Shown here piece by piece: positions 49,037 through 60,613 of a stretch of DNA of 63,158 nucleotides. The notes under the pieces were generated by a model. The model was not told where the DNA came from and made no database searches. It saw nothing but the letters and a program-made list of their open reading frames with translations. Origin of the DNA: Rhodoferax sp. (GTDB lineage Bacteria; Pseudomonadota; Gammaproteobacteria; Burkholderiales; Burkholderiaceae_C); NCBI GenBank assembly GCA_026224975.1, contig JAMFRW010000348.1, positions 1 to 63,158 of the forward strand, read 5' to 3'. The position numbers and the translations under genes are program-made. Within the stretch, counting starts at the first letter, position 1. Each line of letters starts with the position of its first letter.

Positions 49037-50467
49037 ATGTTCATCCTCAACCGCGCCTCTTTCCGCCAGTTGCTCGTCGTCGCCTTCCTGCTGGTGCCGG
49101 CCTTGCTGGCGGTGGTGTCGGTGCGCGGGCTGTACACGCTGGAGCGGCTGATGATCGAGACGCGTCAGGGCGCAGAGCATGCGGCGCGGGATTCGGGCAA
49201 TGTGCAGCGGCTGAGCGAACGCAGCGTGACGATGGAGCGGGCGGCGCGGCAGTTCCTGGTGCTGGGCGATACGGCGCTTCGCGACCGCTTCGACACCGCC
49301 GCGCGCGAAGCCGCCGACGCCATCGCCCAGCTCGGCAACAGCCCGCCCCCGGATGCGCTCTTGAAGAACTGGCACGCGCAGCTCGACACGCTGCGTGCAC
49401 TGATGAGCGGCTCGCCATCGACCGCCGCCGAGCGCGATGTGGCCATCACCAACGGCTTTCGCGACTTGGGCCAGACCAACACCGAAATTGCCGACCACGT
49501 GCAGCGCATGAGCGAGGCGCGCAACCAGGCGCTGCAATCACAGCTCGAAGACGGCCGCCGCGCGCTCGGCCAACGGGTGATCGCGGCCATCGCGCTCGCG
49601 GCGCTGCTGGCCATCGGCTTCGCGGTGTGGCTGGCGCGGCCGCTCAAGCGGCTCGAATCGGCGATCGTCGCGCTCGGCGAAAACCGCATGGACGACGCGA
49701 TCGACATCCCCGGCCCCTCCGACCTGCGCGACCTCGGCCGCCGGCTCGATTGGCTGCGGCTGCGGCTCTCCGAACTCGATTCCGACAAGGCGCGTTTCCT
49801 GCGCCATATCTCGCACGAGCTGAAGACGCCGCTGGCCGCGCTGCGCGAAGGCGTGGCGCTGCTCGAAGAAGGCGTGACCGGCGCGCTCAGCGAGCCGCAG
49901 CGCGAGGTGGCGCGCATCCTGCGGCAGAACACGGCGGCGCTGCAAAGCCAGATCGAGGACCTGCTGCGTTTCAACGCCGCGGCGTTCGAGGCACGCCGAC
50001 TGGTGCGGCGCCGTTACGATCTGTCGATGCTCGCGCATCAGCTTGTCGATGAGCAACGTTTGCAATGGCAGGCGCGTCGATTGCAAGTGAACGTGACGCC
50101 CGGCCCTGTCTGGGCTGAGGTCGATCCCGACAAGCTCGGTGTGGCCCTCGGCAATTTGCTGTCCAATGCGATCCGTTTCAGCCCCTTGGAGAGCACCATC
50201 CAGTTTGCGTTGTCTACCAGCACCTCAGGCGTGCAGATCGACATCATCGATGCCGGCCCCGGCGTGGCCCCGGAAGACCGTTCGCGCGTTTTCGAGCCGT
50301 TCTATCGGGGCGAGCGGCAGCCAGAGGGCGCGTTGCGCGGCACGGGCATCGGCCTCTCGATCGTGCATGAATACGTGGCGGCGCATGGGGGGCGGATCGA
50401 GTTGCTGGCGGAGACGGAAGGGGCGCATTTCAGGATTTCGTTGCCGAGTGCGCATCATCATGATTGA
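49037..50467 (+). CDS. glrK: GlrK/QseE-like sensor histidine kinase
   Basis: MER.ARQF.VL, HAMP, FLRHISHELKTPLA..REG, GTGIGL; synteny with lipoprotein and sigma54 regulator. Confidence 0.8.
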   Translation: MFILNRASFRQLLVVAFLLVPALLAVVSVRGLYTLERLMIETRQGAEHAARDSGNVQRLSERSVTMERAARQFLVLGDTALRDRFDTAAREAADAIAQLGNSPPPDALLKNWHAQLDTLRALMSGSPSTAAERDVAITNGFRDLGQTNTEIADHVQRMSEARNQALQSQLEDGRRALGQRVIAAIALAALLAIGFAVWLARPLKRLESAIVALGENRMDDAIDIPGPSDLRDLGRRLDWLRLRLSELDSDKARFLRHISHELKTPLAALREGVALLEEGVTGALSEPQREVARILRQNTAALQSQIEDLLRFNAAAFEARRLVRRRYDLSMLAHQLVDEQRLQWQARRLQVNVTPGPVWAEVDPDKLGVALGNLLSNAIRFSPLESTIQFALSTSTSGVQIDIIDAGPGVAPEDRSRVFEPFYRGERQPEGALRGTGIGLSIVHEYVAAHGGRIELLAETEGAHFRISLPSAHHHD

Positions 50468-51248
50468 GGCGCGTGCGGGCAGCGTTCGGGCTGGCTCGGG
50501 TCACGGCACCGAGCGTGCTGGCACTTCGACAGGCTCAGTGCGAACGGAGTGGGGATGGGCACGGGCTCGGGCATGGGCATGGGCGCGCACATCGCGCGTC
50601 TCCCCCCACCCGCTCGGGCTGAGCCTGTCGAAGCCCTTCCCCTGGTCGCGCCTGCCTTGCATCGCCGCGGCAATGCTCCTCAGCGCCTGCGAAACCATCA
50701 AACCCCCCCCCCCGCCGCCGACGCCGCCCGAGCCCATCATTCGCGAAGTGCAAGTCCCCGTCGAAGTCTTCATCAAGGTGCCCGACGTGAGCCCGGCAGA
50801 CAGCGCCGCGCGCAACTTCTTCGCCTACTTCGAGCGCGCGCGCCAAATGGCGCCGGCCGAGCTGGGCCGCGAGTTTCAGCGGCTGGACCCCCCGACCAGC
50901 GCCGCGGCCATCCTGGAGATGGCGACCGCGCTCGGCCAGACGCGCAACCCGAGCGACACCGTGCGCGCCCTCGGCCTGCTCGAACCGCTGCTCAAATCGA
51001 CCGACCCGCAGATGGCGCCGTACCAGCCACTCGCCCGCCTGCTGGCCGCGCGCTACAACGAGCAGCGCCGGCTCGAAGACCACATCGAGCGGCAGAACCA
51101 GCAGCTCAAGGACAGCCAGCGCAAGCAGGACCAGCTGACGCAGCAGCTCGAAGCGCTGAAGGCGATCGAGCGCAGCCTGACCGCGCGGCGCAGCGCGGCG
51201 GCGAGCGCGCCGGCCGCGTCGGCCAACGGCGGCAAGGTGGCGCCATGA
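50460..51248 (+). CDS. QseG/YfhG-like lipoprotein
   Basis: Lipobox LSAC; coiled coil ending QQLEALKAIERSL; lies between kinase and regulator; start uncertain. Confidence 0.75.
   Translation: MIEARAGSVRAGSGHGTERAGTSTGSVRTEWGWARARAWAWARTSRVSPHPLGLSLSKPFPWSRLPCIAAAMLLSACETIKPPPPPPTPPEPIIREVQVPVEVFIKVPDVSPADSAARNFFAYFERARQMAPAELGREFQRLDPPTSAAAILEMATALGQTRNPSDTVRALGLLEPLLKSTDPQMAPYQPLARLLAARYNEQRRLEDHIERQNQQLKDSQRKQDQLTQQLEALKAIERSLTARRSAAASAPAASANGGKVAP
50524..50633. repeat. Inverted pair of REP-like units at the 5' end of the lipoprotein ORF
   Basis: CTTCGACAGGCTCAG (50524-50538) and exact complement CTGAGCCTGTCGAAG (50619-50633); 21/24 match when extended. Confidence 0.85.
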
Positions 51249-51267
51249 CGAAGCGTGAGCCAGGACG

Positions 51268-52628
<1,361 letters not shown>

Positions 52629-52641
<13 letters not shown>

Positions 52642-52711
52642 CGACGCGCTGACGCCCGGTAGCGCCGGGCTGTCGCACTCCTGCGAAGGGGTTTGTCGCC
52701 GATCAGCGACG
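52629..52711. promoter_or_regulatory. Three GlrR-type enhancer boxes (TGTC-N10-GACA-like)
   Basis: TGTCGCCGATTAGCGACG 52629-52646, TGTCGCACTCCTGCGAAG 52671-52688, TGTCGCCGATCAGCGACG 52694-52711. Confidence 0.75.
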
Positions 52712-52774
52712 CTTTCGGGACTTTCACTGCTTCTGGCGGTTGGGCGCACCTTCGAAAACGCCTTGAAACACGCC

Positions 52775-52787
52775 TAAGTCATTGATT
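52775..52787 (-). promoter_or_regulatory. IHF binding site
   Basis: Minus strand AATCAATGACTTA fits WATCAANNNNTTR, between enhancers and promoter. Confidence 0.75.
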
Positions 52788-52806
52788 TTCAAGACAAAAC
52801 ACGGCA

Positions 52807-52821
52807 TGGCACGGCCTTTGC
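52807..52821 (+). promoter_or_regulatory. sigma54 -24/-12 promoter
   Basis: TGGCAC-GGCCT-TTGC, perfect consensus spacing. Confidence 0.88.
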
Positions 52822-52992
52822 GCTAAGAGCCCCAAGAGGACGGGTTTCCACCTATCCACTGCCGCAAGAGATGTCGGTTCTGTCCGACAGCCGATCGGGC
52901 CGACAGCCGCTCAGCAGCGTCTGCCCGGTGTCGTTCACTCAGGCGTCGGTTGATTTCCCGATCTTTGTTTTTTTGCTCAGGACACCACTGCC

Positions 52993-54549
52993 TTGTCGAT
53001 TGCTGCCTCATTGCCGAATGTTTCGAACGCGCACCACGCTGCCAAGCTGGCTGCGGCCGTGCTGTGGGCGGTGTTCGCTGCCGGCCAGGCGAATGCGTTC
53101 GGCTTCGACGACGTGTCAGCTCTCGCGCAAGCCGAGTCCAAGACCGACTACCGCGCGCCTGCTCCCATCTCCGACCAGCTCGCCTCGCTGACGTACGACG
53201 CCTACCGCGACATCCGCTACCTGCCGGCACGCGCCGTGTGGCGTGCCGATGCGCTGCCGTTCGAAGTGATGTTCTTCCACCCGGGTGGCCCGTCGAAAGC
53301 GGCGCCCGTGCAGATCAGCGAAATCTCGCCCACCGGCGTGCGCGAGATCCGCCTCGATCCGCAGGACTACCACTACGGCAAGAACACCTTCGTGCCGGCC
53401 AGCTGGGGCCCCATCGGCCACGCCGGCTTTCGCGTGCACTACCCGCTCAACAACGCTGCGTACAAGGACGAGCTGATCACCTTCCAGGGCGCCAGCTACT
53501 TTCGCGCGCTCGGCCGTGGGCAGCATTACGGCCTCTCGGCGCGCGGCTTGGCGATCGACACCGTGAGCGGCACCGGCGGCGAAGAGTTTCCGGTCTTCAA
53601 GGCGTTCTGGATCGAGCGCCCGACGCCCGATGCCAAGGTGCTCACCGTCTACGCGCAGCTCGATTCGAAGCGCGCGACCGGTGCTTACCAGTTCACGCTG
53701 CGCCCCGGCGACGAGACCATCGTCGATGTGCACGCCCGTCTGTTCCTGCGCGCGACCGCCACGCCGATCACCACGCTCGAGATCGCCCCACTGACCAGCA
53801 TGTTCCAGCACGGCGAAAACGCGCCGCGTGCTGGCGAGTTCCGCCCCGAAGTGCACGATTCCGACGGCCTGATGGTCGCGACCGCCGATGGCGAATGGCT
53901 GTGGCGCCCGCTGATCAACCCGAACCGCGTGCGCACGAGTTCGTTCTCGATGACCGGGCTCAAGGGCTTCGGCCTGATGCAGCGCGACCGCTCGTTCGCG
54001 AGCTACGAAGACATCGAAGCGCGTTATGACCGCCGCCCCAGCGCCTGGATCGAGCCGCAAGGTCCGTGGGGCGCTGGCCGCGTCGAACTGGTCGAGCTGC
54101 CCACGCCGGATGAGACGCACGACAACATCGTCGCCTACTGGGTTCCTGCGCAAATGCCGGCAGCCGGCCAGCCGCTGGACCTGAGCTACGCGATCCACTG
54201 GCAAGGCGAGTTGCAGCAGCGCCCCCCCAGCGCGTGGACGGTGCAGTCGCGCGTGGGCGCCGGCTACGGCGGCCTGGCCAAGAACGAAACCCAATACGTC
54301 ATCGACTTTGCCGGCCCTTCGCTCACCGCGCTGGCCGGCGACGCGAAGGTGCAAGCGGTGGTCACCGTCGACGCCAACGCCAAGCTGATGGAACAAAACG
54401 CCTACCGCAACGATGTGACGGGCGGCTACCGCATGACTCTCCGCATCCAACGAATCAATGTCACGCAGCCCGTCGAACTGCGTGCCTTTCTCAAATCCGA
54501 CAACAACGCACTGACCGAAACATGGACCACTCTGATTCAACCCGATTGA
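52993..54549 (+). CDS. opgG: Periplasmic glucan biosynthesis protein OpgG/MdoG
   Basis: FQGASYFRA, YGLSARGLAIDT, EEFP.F..FW, RPEVHDSDGL, DNIVAYW; signal peptide. Confidence 0.92.
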   Translation: MSIAASLPNVSNAHHAAKLAAAVLWAVFAAGQANAFGFDDVSALAQAESKTDYRAPAPISDQLASLTYDAYRDIRYLPARAVWRADALPFEVMFFHPGGPSKAAPVQISEISPTGVREIRLDPQDYHYGKNTFVPASWGPIGHAGFRVHYPLNNAAYKDELITFQGASYFRALGRGQHYGLSARGLAIDTVSGTGGEEFPVFKAFWIERPTPDAKVLTVYAQLDSKRATGAYQFTLRPGDETIVDVHARLFLRATATPITTLEIAPLTSMFQHGENAPRAGEFRPEVHDSDGLMVATADGEWLWRPLINPNRVRTSSFSMTGLKGFGLMQRDRSFASYEDIEARYDRRPSAWIEPQGPWGAGRVELVELPTPDETHDNIVAYWVPAQMPAAGQPLDLSYAIHWQGELQQRPPSAWTVQSRVGAGYGGLAKNETQYVIDFAGPSLTALAGDAKVQAVVTVDANAKLMEQNAYRNDVTGGYRMTLRIQRINVTQPVELRAFLKSDNNALTETWTTLIQPD

Positions 54550-56822
54550 ACCGGCCCGTCGGGTCGGCGTTGCACCGCATCTTCGGCGCGCAAGCGGCGG
54601 CCCACGAGCGCTCTGCGCCGGGCCGTGACGGCAGCGCGCCGCCCATCAACCGTGGCTCGATGGTGCCGCGCCCCTGGCTGGGCTTCCGCGCAGGTGTGAA
54701 GCTGGCCCTGGCGCAGCGCTTCGGCTCGGCCCCTGCGGATGCTGCCGGCGAATTTGCCGACACGACCCCGCACGAGGCCTGGGAACACGCCGCCGCCCGC
54801 CGCCGCAGCACGCTGCTATGGCTGGTAGGCGCATCGGGCATCGGCGCGGCCGCACTGCTCGCCAGCGCGCAACCGATGTTCGACCACCCGGTGCTCCGCG
54901 TGATCCAGGTGGCGCTGTTCGCGCTGCTGTTCACCTGGGTCTCGGCCGGCTTCTTCACGGCGATGATGGGCTTCGTGGTGCAGCTCCGCGGCGACAGGCA
55001 CGGCCTCTCGCTCGATGCCGTGCGCAACGCACCCATCGCCTCGGATGCCCGCACGGCGGTCATCATGCCGATCTGCAATGAGCAGGTTTCGACGGTGTTC
55101 GCCGGCCTGCGCGCCACCTGCGAATCGCTCGCCACCACCGACCACGCAGGCCTGTTCGACGTGTACGTGCTCTCCGACACCAGCGACCCCGAACTGCGCA
55201 CCGCAGAACTGGCTGCCTGGGCCGAGCTGCGCGACACGCTGGCAGCAGACAACGCCGACGTGCGCATCTACTACCGCTGGCGCCAGCGCCGCGCGCACCG
55301 CAAGTCGGGCAACGTGGCCGACTTCTGCCGCCGCTGGGGCAAGAACTACCGCTACATGGTCGTGCTCGATGCCGACAGCGTCATGAGCGGCGACTGCATG
55401 CAGAACATGGTCCGCCTGATGGAAGCCCATCCCAAGGCCGGCATCATCCAGACCGCTCCTCAAGCCAGTGGCCTGGAAACCGTACACGCGCGCGCCCAGC
55501 AGTTCGCCGGCCGCACGACGGGCCGCCTGTTCACCACCGGCATGCAGTACTGGCAGCTCGGCGAATCGCACTACTGGGGCCACAACGCGATCATCCGCGT
55601 CGAGCCCTTCATGAAGCATTGCGCGCTGGCCGCGCTGCCGGGCAATGGCGGCTTGTCTGGCGACATCATGTCGCACGACTTCGTCGAAGCCGCGCTGATG
55701 CGCCGCGCCGGTTACCACACGTGGTTGGTGCCTGATCTCGCCGGCAGCTACGAACAGCAGCCGCCCAACCTGCTCGAAGAATTGAAGCGTGACCGCCGCT
55801 GGTGCCAGGGCAATCTGCAGAACGCCCGCCTGATGGCCGAACCCGGCCTGCACCGCGTGCACCGCGCCATGCTCGCCACTGGCGCGATGGCTTACCTCTC
55901 GGCTCCGTTGTGGTTGGGCTCGGTGTTGCTGGGCGCTGCGGTGTGGCTCTTCAGCGGCAGCAGCAACGTCGTCTTCCAGCACGGCCTGCCGATCGAAATG
56001 ATCGCGCTGTGGGCCTGCACGGTGACCATGCTCGCCCTGCCGCGCATCCTCGGCGTGGTGACGATCGCGCTCAAGGGCGAACAGCATCTGTATGGCGGCA
56101 CGGCCGCGCTCGCCAAGGGCGCGTTCCTCGAAGGCCTGCTCTCGATGCTGCAAGCGCCGGTCCGCATGATCGCGCACTCGATGTTCGTGATGGTGGCCTT
56201 GACCGGCCTCAAGCTCGAATGGAAGTCGCCCCCGCGGGAAGCCGCTGCGGTGAGCTGGAACGACGCTGCGCAAAGCCTCGCGCCGATCGCCGGTGTGGTG
56301 CTCGCGCTGCTGGTCCTGGCACTGATCTTCGCCCCGGCTGCTGCGCTGTGGCTCGCTCCGGTCGGCCTGCCGCTGCTGTTGGCCATGCCACTCTGCGTGC
56401 TGACCAGCCGCGCCGGCTTCGGTTCGAAGGTGCGTTCGATGGGCCTGCTGGTGACGCCTGAAGAAGCCTCGACGCCGGCCGTGCTGCGCAAGGCCTGGGA
56501 CTACGCCGAAGCCGCCACGCCCGCGCCTGAGTGGCACGAAGTGGTGGCCAACCCGTGGCTGTTCGACGTGGTGCACCAAGCCATGGGCCCGCGTGACACC
56601 GCCCGCGGCAGCCGTGGCCGCGAGCGCACCCGCCTGGTCCATCGCCTGGTCTTCGGCCATGGCGTGGACAAGGGCCTGACGACGAGCGAGCGCATGCGCC
56701 TTCTCAGCGAACCGCAAACGATCGTGCATCTGCGCGAAGAGCTGGCAGCGAATTCGGACTTCGGTGTGGATGCGCAAGAGCAAGCCGAGGCGATGTTCGG
56801 CAGGCATCTGCAGCGCGCTTGA
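54522..56822 (+). CDS. opgH: Glucan biosynthesis glucosyltransferase OpgH/MdoH
   Basis: MPICNE, RKSGNVADFC, VLDADSVM, YWGHNAIIR, SHDFVEA, RDRRWCQGN. Confidence 0.95.
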   Translation: MDHSDSTRLNRPVGSALHRIFGAQAAAHERSAPGRDGSAPPINRGSMVPRPWLGFRAGVKLALAQRFGSAPADAAGEFADTTPHEAWEHAAARRRSTLLWLVGASGIGAAALLASAQPMFDHPVLRVIQVALFALLFTWVSAGFFTAMMGFVVQLRGDRHGLSLDAVRNAPIASDARTAVIMPICNEQVSTVFAGLRATCESLATTDHAGLFDVYVLSDTSDPELRTAELAAWAELRDTLAADNADVRIYYRWRQRRAHRKSGNVADFCRRWGKNYRYMVVLDADSVMSGDCMQNMVRLMEAHPKAGIIQTAPQASGLETVHARAQQFAGRTTGRLFTTGMQYWQLGESHYWGHNAIIRVEPFMKHCALAALPGNGGLSGDIMSHDFVEAALMRRAGYHTWLVPDLAGSYEQQPPNLLEELKRDRRWCQGNLQNARLMAEPGLHRVHRAMLATGAMAYLSAPLWLGSVLLGAAVWLFSGSSNVVFQHGLPIEMIALWACTVTMLALPRILGVVTIALKGEQHLYGGTAALAKGAFLEGLLSMLQAPVRMIAHSMFVMVALTGLKLEWKSPPREAAAVSWNDAAQSLAPIAGVVLALLVLALIFAPAAALWLAPVGLPLLLAMPLCVLTSRAGFGSKVRSMGLLVTPEEASTPAVLRKAWDYAEAATPAPEWHEVVANPWLFDVVHQAMGPRDTARGSRGRERTRLVHRLVFGHGVDKGLTTSERMRLLSEPQTIVHLREELAANSDFGVDAQEQAEAMFGRHLQRA

Positions 56823-58699: not shown

Positions 58700-60613
58700 A
58701 TGGCCATCTTTCCGCAAGGCTTGTCCCACGTCGATTCACGCTGCAACGCAGGCGAGCGGCGCGTGTTGCATCAGATCAAGCGCTGCCTCGGTGACGACTA
58801 CTGGGTGTGGCACGACATCCCGCTCGGGCCGCGCGCACGCCAGCCCGACTTCGTGGTGCTCAGCCCGCGCTGGGGCATCCTGCTGATCGAGGTGAAAGAC
58901 TGGAAGCGCAGCACGCTCGTGGCCGCCACGCGCGATGCCGTCGAGCTGGCCACGCCGCGCGGTCGTGTGATGCAGGCACACCCGCTGCGCCAGGCGCGCG
59001 ACTATGCGATGGAGCTGGTCGACCTCATGCAGCGCGACCCGGCGCTGGTGCATGCGCAGGGCCTGTTCAATGGCAAGCTGCTGTTCCCGTACGGGTGGGG
59101 CGTGGTGCTCTCGAACGTGAAGCGCGAAGAGGTCGCCGAGAGCGATTTCGACGAACTCTTTCCGATTCAACGAACCCTGCTGCGCGATGATCTCGACGCT
59201 GCCGTGGACGAAGGCGCCTTCCAGCAGCGGCTCTGGGGCATGTTCACGCTGCACTACCCGCACACGCTGACCTTGCCGCAGCGCGACCGCATCCGCTGGC
59301 ACCTGTTTCCCGAGATTCGCCTGGCGCAGCAGGCCTCGCTGCTCGACGACGAAGGAGACGGCTCGGCGAACATCGCGCTGCCCGACCTGCTGCAGGTGAT
59401 GGACTTGCAGCAGGAGCAGATCGCCCGCACGCTGGGCGAAGGCCACCGTGTGATCCACGGCGTGGCGGGCTCCGGCAAGACGATGATCCTGATCTTTCGC
59501 GCGCAGCAACTGGCGGCCGGCGCGAGTGCGGGCCAACCCATCCTCGTGCTCTGCTACAACAACGCGCTCGCGGCTCGTATCGACGCCCAGTTGCGCAGCC
59601 GCGGCGTGGACGAGCGCGTGAAGGTGCGCACCTTCCATGCGTGGTGCGAAGACCTCGTCCGCAGCTACCAGCTCGATGTACCCGCCGAGCGCCGCGCTGC
59701 CGACTACTGGGCCCTGCTCGCGAAGACGGTCGCCCGCGCCGTCGAAAGCGGCTTCGTGCCCGGCGGCCAATACACGGCGTTGCTGATCGACGAAGCGCAC
59801 GACTTCGAGGACGCCTGGCTGCAGGTGGCCGCCCGCATGGTGAACCCCGATTCACGCTCGCTTCTGGTGCTCTACGACGACACGCAATCCATCTACCAGA
59901 AGAAGCGCAAGCGGTTCAACTTCGCGAGCGTCGGCATCGAAGCCGTGGGCCGCACCAGCATCTTGCGGATGAATTACCGCAACACCGCGGAGGTGCTGGC
60001 GGTGGCGCTGCAATGTGCGCAGCATTTGATCGGGGCGGAGCGGCGAGCTGCAGAGCCGGCGATGGATTCGTCATCGCCCGACACGGCCGACGCCGCGCTC
60101 GGCATGGAACACGTGCACCCCGATTCGGCCGGCCGTCGCGGCCCGATGCCGGTGCTCATCGAAGCCCGCCACGAACGCGACGAAGCCGAGGCCATCGCCC
60201 AGCGCATCGCCGACTCCCAGGCCAACGGCCGCCCGCTGCAAGAGATCGCCATCCTGCTGCGCACCCGCTTCCAGATGCCCGCGATCGAAGCCGCACTTCG
60301 TCGTCACAGCATCCCCTTCGCCAGCATGAACGACCGCCGCCTGCGCCCCGCCGACTGGGCTGCGGCCAGCGTCAAGATGATCACCCTGCACAGCGCCAAG
60401 GGCCTCGAATTCCCGCTCGTTTTCATCGCCGGCCTGCAAGCCATGCCGCACCGCGGCGAAGACCTCGACGAAGAGATCCGCCTGCTCTACGTCGGCATGA
60501 CCCGCGCGACGCACGAACTCGTTTTCTCGGCGCACGGGCGGCCATCGGCGATCGTGGACAAGGTGCGCGAGGCGATCGGGGCAGTGGGGACGCGGTTTGC
60601 GCGGTCGGGGTGA
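58700..60613 (+). CDS. NERD nuclease fused to SF1 (UvrD-like) helicase
   Basis: PDFVVL...LIEVKDW; [37 protein letters not shown]. Confidence 0.92.

What the first reader, a model, noticed from the sequence alone, without database searches (positions are those of the whole stretch)
49037..56822. GlrK-QseG-GlrR-like system wired to periplasmic glucan synthesis through a glmY-type promoter
Known: in enterobacteria GlrR binds TGTC-N10-GACA boxes and, with IHF and sigma54, activates the sRNA GlmY (and rpoE). Seen: directly after glrR are three such boxes (one overlapping its stop codon), an IHF site and a perfect TGGCAC-N5-TTGC promoter pointing into opgG-opgH. Inference: here the envelope-sensing three-component system controls osmoregulated periplasmic glucan production through sigma54, a regulon link I do not know to be described.
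Basis: partly seen in the sequence, partly recalled or inferred. Interest (0 to 1): 0.72.

Follow-up and report, generated by a model that had tools for sequence, protein, structure and literature searches.

The report
Envelope sensor rewired to glucan genes
An envelope-sensing trio of proteins (GlrK-QseG-GlrR), known from E. coli for switching on a small RNA, sits here before a conserved sigma-54 promoter that likely lets it switch on the genes for periplasmic glucans directly; the same wiring recurs across many Burkholderiaceae but has not been tested in cells.

Summary
Mostly confirmed. glrK, qseG, glrR, opgG and opgH are present; the first three are QseE/QseG/QseF orthologues (structure hits, interface residues, DNA-binding helix, tree). 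Two conserved GlrR-type boxes (52629, 52694; they end GACG, not GACA), an IHF site (52775) and a sigma54 -24/-12 (52807) face opgG; this combination occurs once in the genome. In 62 of 63 relatives with opgG/opgH just behind glrR, two boxes plus -24/-12 are kept. They stay with opgG in two genomes where it lies away from glrR, and are absent upstream of opg in 30 of 30 genomes lacking GlrR. In 31 of 58 scored relatives the opgG/opgH ATG sits at the predicted start site (likely leaderless); this genome has a ~160-nt leader. In more distant betaproteobacteria the promoter faces BON-domain or glycine-zipper envelope genes. Direct GlrR/sigma54 control of opgGH is likely (~0.85) but untested; my literature searches did not find it. 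The scan reported the same system in two other genomes. New variant of a known kind.

The parts
49037..50467 (+). glrK/qseE orthologue, membrane histidine kinase (HAMP-HisKA-HATPase)
   Evidence: Best PDB hit 9m08_C over full length, E 7e-59, next best 7e-29; 9M08 is the QseG-QseE complex. N-terminal 201 aa hit only 9m08/9m07. MERAARQ motif matches the QseE E69/R70/R73/Q74 spacing given in PMC12691602.
50460..51248 (+). qseG-like lipoprotein (lipobox LSAC, Cys77 at 50688; Pro-rich linker; helical domain; C-terminal LKAIERSLTARR)
   Evidence: AlphaFold model pLDDT 90.8; Foldseek ranks 1-10 all QseG (E 0.02-0.25, none at E<=0.001); PF13942 weak in 19 of 62 homologues, below cut-off; L/E/R/R/K spacing equals Salmonella L209/E213/R214/R219/K220.
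50501..50645 (.). two inverted copies of a dispersed REP-like repeat lying in frame in the long N-terminal region of qseG
   Evidence: 16-nt cores occur 56 and 39 times in the genome; 134 BLAST hits
51268..52641 (+). glrR/qseF orthologue: receiver (Asp53), AAA+ with GAFTGA, HTH with RNRTEFY helix
   Evidence: NCBIfam GlrR 4e-187; in a 99*-supported 53-row clade with Xenorhabdus/Arsenophonus GlrR, apart from the other sigma54 activators sampled; same recognition helix (quick tree)
52629..52646 (.). GlrR-type box 1 (TGTCG-N8-CGACG), overlapping the last codons and stop of glrR
   Evidence: conserved in relatives
52671..52688 (.). weak third box-like word (one mismatch at a nearly invariant position); not conserved
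   Evidence: box-like word here in 1 of 63 relatives; IHF-like site in this interval in 51 of 63
52694..52711 (.). GlrR-type box 2, 65 bp from box 1 and 113 bp from the -24 element
   Evidence: among 65 loci with the layout, box spacing is 63-69 bp in 55 and box2-to-promoter distance 110-115 bp in 42
52775..52787 (-). IHF consensus site, 32 bp upstream of the -24 element
   Evidence: IHF-like site at 31-32 bp in 50 of 65 loci with the layout; ihfA present in genome
52807..52821 (+). sigma54 -24/-12 promoter; predicted start site about 52833-52836
   Evidence: rpoN present; GlmY model starts 12 and 14 nt after the same C in two enterobacterial loci
52834..52992 (+). predicted ~160-nt 5' leader, longer than in the two nearest relatives (~60 nt); holds a strict TGTC-N10-GACA (52872-52889), a weak hairpin+U run (52945-52972) and SD-like CAGGAC (52978-52983)
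   Evidence: (z -1.2); no Rfam hit in the window
52993..54549 (+). opgG (mdoG), Sec-type signal peptide, TTG start
   Evidence: PF04349 2e-182; closer to OpgG (9e-126) than OpgD (2e-96) structures; CAGGAC plus TTG start also in L095 and L096
54522..56822 (+). opgH (mdoH) glucosyltransferase
   Evidence: NF003960 MdoH 1032 bits, above the 829 cut-off

Best explanation
The window encodes QseE/QseG/QseF (GlrK-QseG-GlrR) orthologues followed by a conserved two-box, IHF and sigma54 promoter that faces opgG-opgH, and phosphorylated GlrR likely activates opgGH transcription directly from it. Shown: the genes, their orthology signals, the motifs, their conservation and their co-occurrence with GlrR. 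Inferred from enterobacterial work: the outer-membrane lipoprotein QseG contacts the GlrK periplasmic domain and stimulates its kinase; GlrR~P binds the two TGTCG-N8-CGACR boxes about 65 bp apart; IHF bends the DNA; sigma54-RNA polymerase starts near 52834. OpgH and OpgG would then make periplasmic glucans. In E. coli QseF activates rpoE and sigmaE induces mdoGH, so this lineage likely reaches the same output by a direct wire instead of through sigmaE or the GlmY sRNA. The signal sensed is unknown.
For: Unique site in own genome. Of 93 sampled genomes with a >=74%-identical GlrR, 88 have opgH within 3.5 kb downstream on the same strand. Of 67 fetched loci at >=73% identity, 63 have opgG (37) or opgH (26) within 800 nt, and 62 of these 63 have two boxes plus -24/-12 (58, four more after a regex fix). 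In G214 and G433 opgGH lies away from glrR and carries the full promoter (L175, L176); the G214 glrR has no boxes behind it. 0 of 30 opg upstream regions in GlrR-less genomes have the layout. First in-frame ATG of opgG/opgH is 11-14 nt after C(-12) in 31 of 58 loci, the same distance as the GlmY 5' end in two enterobacterial loci. Geometry matches glmY ABS2-IHF-ABS3 (63 bp). GlrK-QseG model scored 0.67 against best control 0.39 (mark reached by 116 of 157 solved and 2 of 215 mismatched pairs; runs agree in >=84% of contacts, partner pLDDT >=87); the interface uses the residues reported for Salmonella, but a like complex is solved (9M08), so this shows likeness only. E. coli links: PMC6075780, PMC2731931 Table 2.
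Against: No transcript, binding or mutant data. The 88 linked genomes probably descend from one ancestral arrangement, so they are not independent. Motif patterns were loosened after looking at the positive loci (controls were scanned with the same final patterns). No terminator-like site lies between glrR and the promoter, so read-through from the glrK operon could supply basal opgGH expression. This genome has a long lineage-specific leader with a weak hairpin+U run, and a repeat insert in the QseG N-terminus, either of which could weaken the circuit here. GlrR and QseG fall below the curated family cut-offs.
Confidence: 0.85

Rival explanations
1. The promoter makes a GlmY-like small RNA (about 140 nt, ending at the hairpin+U run at 52945-52972); opgGH is transcribed otherwise.
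For: In enterobacteria the promoter drives an sRNA (PMC3045617; L027, L029). One terminator-like site lies in this genome's leader.
Against: One such site is the chance rate (shuffle mean 0.7); leader folding is unremarkable (z -1.2). No Rfam hit in the window or at the promoter in 10 betaproteobacterial loci. GlmY and GlmZ not found in the 87%-complete genome. The leader sequence is not kept in the nearest relatives, and in 31 of 58 relatives the opg ATG is at the start site, leaving no room for an sRNA.
Confidence: 0.05
2. opgGH is mainly co-transcribed with glrK-qseG-glrR or from a sigma70/ECF promoter; the GlrR/sigma54 promoter is a minor booster, or has decayed in this strain.
For: No terminator-like site after glrR. 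E. coli glmY has an overlapping weak sigma70 promoter (PMC6075780). This genome lacks the between-box IHF-like site present in 51 of 63 relatives and has an insert in the QseG N-terminus.
Against: No sigma70-like promoter found in 52500-53200. The full promoter accompanies opgG where it lies away from glrR. Both boxes, the proximal IHF site and the -24/-12 are intact here.
Confidence: 0.08
3. Another sigma54 activator (e.g. the 56-60%-identical GlrR paralogue of some relatives) uses these boxes.
For: A paralogous clade without a qseG-like gene has similar TGTCGG..CCGACA boxes.
Against: Only one GlrR-clade gene was found in this genome at E<=1e-100. The double-box pattern was found in 84 of 111 genomes with a GlrR hit and 7 of 290 without (my tally; the reversed control pattern hit about 50 of 401).
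Confidence: 0.02

Closest known systems
Enterobacterial QseE-QseG-QseF (GlrK-QseG-GlrR) and the glmY/glmZ sigma54 promoters (PMC3045617, PMC6075780; passages read)
   Same: Gene order kinase-lipoprotein-activator; same HTH recognition helix; TGTC-N10-GAC(A) boxes about 63-67 bp apart with IHF-like sites and a -24/-12; start 12-14 nt after C(-12).
   Different: Target is protein-coding opgG/opgH downstream of glrR, not an sRNA upstream of glrK. Two conserved boxes, not three; consensus TGTCG(C)-N6-(G)CGACR. Last box is 110-115 bp from the promoter in most loci versus 123-124 in the two glmY loci measured. GlmY/GlmZ not found here. The mRNA is predicted leaderless in about half the relatives.
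QseF-activated rpoE P2 promoter and sigmaE control of mdoGH in E. coli (PMC6075780; PMC2731931 Table 2: mdoG 10.7-fold, mdoH 4.2-fold)
   Same: Links QseF to periplasmic glucan genes.
   Different: Indirect via sigmaE in E. coli (the chain is my inference from two papers); predicted direct here.
qseEGF clusters in Betaproteobacteria (PMC12691602; passages and supplement search)
   Same: Reports the three-gene cluster and conserved QseG-QseE interface in Betaproteobacteria.
   Different: The passages read name no betaproteobacterial target; opg/mdo/glucan had no hits in its supplement text.
OpgG/OpgH (MdoG/MdoH) periplasmic glucan synthesis
   Same: Standard opgG-opgH pair.
   Different: sigma54/activator-dependent promoter; in 26 of 63 relatives only opgH follows the promoter, and in 5 of 5 such genomes checked the single MdoG-family gene is a separate twin-arginine (OpgD-like) gene without boxes.

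Membership tests
QseE/QseG/QseF (GlrK-QseG-GlrR) | gene order kinase - lipoprotein - sigma54 response regulator | tested here: met
QseE/QseG/QseF (GlrK-QseG-GlrR) | QseE-type periplasmic domain with R70/R73 interface motif | tested here: met
   9m08/9m07 only hits for the N-terminal 201 aa; MERAARQ aligned to QseE MERSYRQ
QseE/QseG/QseF (GlrK-QseG-GlrR) | QseG fold, lipobox and C-terminal L209/E213/R214/R219/K220 motif | tested here: met
   Foldseek ranks 1-10 all QseG (weak E 0.02-0.25, prob 0.93-1.0); lipobox LSAC; L157/E161/R162/R167/R168 in mature numbering
QseE/QseG/QseF (GlrK-QseG-GlrR) | score above curated cut-offs (NF011695 GlrR; PF13942 YfhG) | tested here: not met
   622 vs 763 bits; 13.8 vs 27 bits
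QseE/QseG/QseF (GlrK-QseG-GlrR) | GlrR groups with enterobacterial GlrR and shares the recognition helix | tested here: met
   quick IQ-TREE, 99* clade of 53 rows; RNRTEFY helix in both
QseE/QseG/QseF (GlrK-QseG-GlrR) | QseG binds and activates the kinase; phosphotransfer to GlrR | tested here: inconclusive
   model passes (0.67 vs best control 0.39) but may recall the solved 9M08 complex; activity not testable
glmY-type GlrR/IHF/sigma54 promoter | -24/-12 element at correct spacing | tested here: met
   52807-52821
glmY-type GlrR/IHF/sigma54 promoter | three TGTC-N10-GACA boxes >100 bp upstream | tested here: not met
   two conserved boxes ending GACG, one weak unconserved; PMC3045617 reports ABS1 dispensable
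glmY-type GlrR/IHF/sigma54 promoter | two IHF sites flanking the proximal box | tested here: inconclusive
   proximal site present; between-box site absent here but present in 51 of 63 relatives
glmY-type GlrR/IHF/sigma54 promoter | drives the sRNA GlmY/GlmZ | tested here: not met
glmY-type GlrR/IHF/sigma54 promoter | GlrR binding and RpoN/IHF-dependent transcription | not testable with these tools
   needs EMSA, reporters, 5'-end mapping
OpgG/OpgH glucan synthesis | MdoG domain protein with Sec signal plus GT2 MdoH | tested here: met

The most novel reading that the evidence does not exclude
QseEGF is ancestrally a periplasm-integrity homeostat: the lipoprotein, tethered to the outer membrane by a Pro-rich linker, reads envelope spacing, and its portable two-box/IHF/sigma54 promoter has been attached to different envelope-filling outputs (BON and glycine-zipper proteins in most betaproteobacteria, periplasmic glucans in Comamonadaceae-like lineages, GlmY in enterobacteria). 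With opgGH as the output it would form a feedback loop giving a transcriptional route to 'osmoregulation' of glucans, often via leaderless sigma54 mRNAs.
Probability: 0.25. Interest if true: 0.75.

Novelty: new variant of a known kind. Interest (0 to 1): 0.55.

Why it matters
The listed QseF/GlrR targets in the papers read are glmY, glmZ and rpoE in enterobacteria, and the betaproteobacterial clusters have no named target there. This gives a precise, testable target and binding consensus for dozens of genera (Variovorax, Hydrogenophaga and Rhizobacter among the named loci). It would be a sigma54-dependent route to periplasmic glucan synthesis. The alternative targets, all exported or envelope proteins, hint at what the system guards, which bears on the open question of its signal.

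Tried and rejected
Rfam scans found no RNA family in the window or at the promoter in 10 betaproteobacterial loci (12 of 15 intended loci scanned). GlmY/GlmZ not found in the 87%-complete genome. Sequence searches of the QseG-like protein against PDB, single and profile, gave no QseG hit; only the fold search did. 'Three boxes' rejected as a conserved feature. A wider regulon was not found: one site in this genome, and the double-box pattern usually rang once per genome, beside glrR; extra sites with -24/-12 were seen in four distant-clade genomes. The careful tree did not finish; the quick tree was used. Literature searches (listings only, top 12-25 rows each) showed no paper joining GlrR/QseF or RpoN to opgGH. 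PMC12316311 had no hits for the six terms searched in its main text and six (partly different) in its supplements. PMC3162934 main text has no 'glucan'; its supplements list only weak P. putida sigma54 words near mdoG/mdoH and two alphaproteobacterial mdoG context rows, and file 4 was cut when stored, so activator-context rows may be unseen. PMC11778176 and PMC8301835 passages were irrelevant. Subscription-only papers were not searchable.
Full report
Observation. The region holds a HAMP-HisKA-HATPase kinase (49037-50467), a lipoprotein ORF (50460-51248), a receiver-AAA+-HTH activator (51268-52641), opgG (52993-54549) and opgH (54522-56822). Behind glrR are box 1 (52629-52646, over the stop codon), a weaker word (52671-52688), box 2 (52694-52711), an exact IHF consensus (52775-52787) and TGGCAC-N5-TTGC (52807-52821). 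None of the three upstream words ends in GACA; the only strict TGTC-N10-GACA lies downstream of the promoter (52872-52889). In the 5.9-Mb genome only this sigma54 word, of 20 strict and 81 relaxed, has a box 60-300 nt upstream, and only this one of 2398 looser words has the two-box layout. rpoN and ihfA are present. GlmY and GlmZ were not found in the 87%-complete genome.

Identity of the regulators. The kinase's best PDB match is 9m08_C over its whole length (7e-59), and its N-terminal 201 residues match only 9m08/9m07; 9M08 is the QseG-QseE complex. The residues that PMC12691602 (passages) names at the interface have the same spacing here: QseE E69/R70/R73/Q74/V77/L78/D80 in MERAARQFLVLGD, and QseG L209/E213/R214/R219/K220 in LKAIERSLTARR. 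The lipoprotein has no QseG hit by sequence and only a sub-threshold PF13942 match (19 of 62 homologues at E<=0.1). Its model (pLDDT 90.8) returns QseG chains at Foldseek ranks 1-10, at weak E-values of 0.02-0.25. A 2:2 complex scored 0.67 against a best control of 0.39 (mark reached by 116 of 157 solved and 2 of 215 mismatched pairs; runs agree in at least 84% of contacts; partner pLDDT at least 87); since a like complex is solved this shows likeness, not binding. The activator's best NCBIfam family is GlrR, below cut-off (622 vs 763). In a quick tree of 83 activators it lies in a 99*-supported clade with Xenorhabdus and Arsenophonus GlrR and shares their RNRTEFY helix.

Conservation. In 401 family genomes, 111 have a GlrR-clade hit and 129 an OpgH hit. 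Of 93 with GlrR at least 74% identical, 88 have opgH within 3.5 kb downstream on the same strand, 3 have it elsewhere (one on another short contig) and 2 have none. I fetched 80 glrR loci, hand-picked to spread over genera (78 of the 117 non-own matches, plus 2). Of 67 at 73% identity or more, 63 have opgG (37) or opgH (26) within 800 nt. Two boxes plus a -24/-12 were found in 58 of these 63 and in 62 after I corrected a mis-written -12 variant. Among the 65 loci scored positive, box spacing is 63-69 bp in 55, box 2 to promoter 110-115 bp in 42, and an IHF-like site sits 31-32 bp before the promoter in 50. The consensus over 126 boxes is TGTCG(C)-N6-(G)CGACR, with A 95 and G 29 at the last position.

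Controls. In G214 and G433 opgGH lies 52 kb away from glrR or on another contig; both carry two boxes, IHF and -24/-12 before opgG, and the G214 glrR has none behind it. Of 35 genomes with opgH but no GlrR hit I fetched 31; one had no upstream DNA; 0 of 30 have the layout, though 5 have a lone sigma54-like word. A genome-wide double-box pattern rang in 91 of 401 genomes: by my tally 84 of 111 with a GlrR hit and 7 of 290 without, usually once and beside glrR; its reversed control rang in about 50, so this pattern alone is noisy. Kin are not independent, and patterns were tuned on positives, so these counts are not a statistical test.

What is transcribed. In two enterobacterial loci the GlmY model starts 12 and 14 nt after the -12 C, with boxes 63 bp apart and 123-124 bp from the promoter. 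In 31 of 58 relatives the first in-frame ATG of opgG or opgH is 11-14 nt after that C, and in several it is the only start that yields the OpgG signal peptide. So the product is likely the opg mRNA, often leaderless. This genome differs: a TTG start with an SD-like word, as in its two nearest relatives, after a leader about 110 nt longer than theirs. The leader folds no better than shuffles (z -1.2) and has one weak terminator-like site at the chance rate. Where only opgH follows the promoter, the single MdoG-family gene is a separate twin-arginine type without boxes (5 of 5 checked), so opgH is the constant target. In more distant betaproteobacteria such promoters face BON-domain, glycine-zipper or EF-hand proteins.

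Mechanism. Inferred from E. coli and Salmonella (passages of PMC3045617, PMC6075780, PMC12691602): QseG activates GlrK, GlrR~P binds the two boxes, IHF loops the DNA, and sigma54-polymerase starts near 52834 into opgGH. In E. coli QseF activates rpoE and sigmaE induces mdoG and mdoH 10.7- and 4.2-fold (PMC2731931 Table 2); joining these is my inference, and the present case would be the direct version. Confidence 0.85. Rivals: minor or decayed promoter with read-through (0.08), sRNA product (0.05), another activator (0.02). No RNA data could be laid on the region.

Novelty. The regulators, the promoter type and the opg genes are known, and qseEGF clusters are reported in Betaproteobacteria. 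The link to opgGH was not found in eight literature searches (listings only) or in the texts and supplements searched; one supplement file was truncated and closed-access papers were not searchable. Two earlier reports of this scan describe the same system in other genomes; I had reached this reading, including the leaderless starts and the relocation and GlrR-less controls, before that call, and they are not independent support. Verdict: new variant of a known kind, real and directly testable; interest 0.55.

Noticed in passing
window 50501-50645: Two inverted copies of a dispersed REP-like repeat lie in frame in the qseG N-terminus, giving 76 residues before the lipobox cysteine from the ATG at 50460; could affect export.
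   Followed up: partly
window 52872-52889: A strict TGTC-N10-GACA lies about 40 nt downstream of the predicted start site; similar downstream words appear in a few relatives (L015, L118, L121, L128, L132, L135) but not in the nearest two. Possible roadblock site or chance.
   Followed up: partly
L138:4268-4468, L143:4268-4468, L154:4269-4469, L017: A 67-aa ORF with a shared CVxKRxPxIG motif starts at the predicted start site, before opgH in three of these loci; no Pfam hit for the two scanned.
   Followed up: partly
L005, L018, L162, L163, L208, L209 (BON); L007, L011, L013 (glycine zipper 2TM); L020 (EF-hand); L210: In more distant betaproteobacteria a GlrR-box and/or sigma54 promoter faces small exported or envelope proteins instead of opg; L018 has only degenerate boxes.
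   Followed up: yes
L167, L169, L170, L213, L214: A second GlrR-like clade (56-60% identical, no qseG-like hit) has the same double-box layout with TGTCGG..CCGACA and a -12 reading TTGA or TTGT, facing other genes, in several cases predicted lipoproteins.
   Followed up: partly
G001-G034; L191, L192: Only 3 of 34 same-genus genomes had this GlrR; two same-genus genomes have a more distant opgH (50-51%) without GlrR or the promoter. Suggests loss, replacement or transfer of the cassette as a unit.
   Followed up: partly
window 52629-52641 and relatives: The glrR reading frame runs into the enhancer: its stop is inside box 1 here and in many relatives, or at the following IHF-like site in others.
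   Followed up: no
window 58700-60613: NERD nuclease fused to a UvrD-like helicase; not examined further.
   Followed up: no
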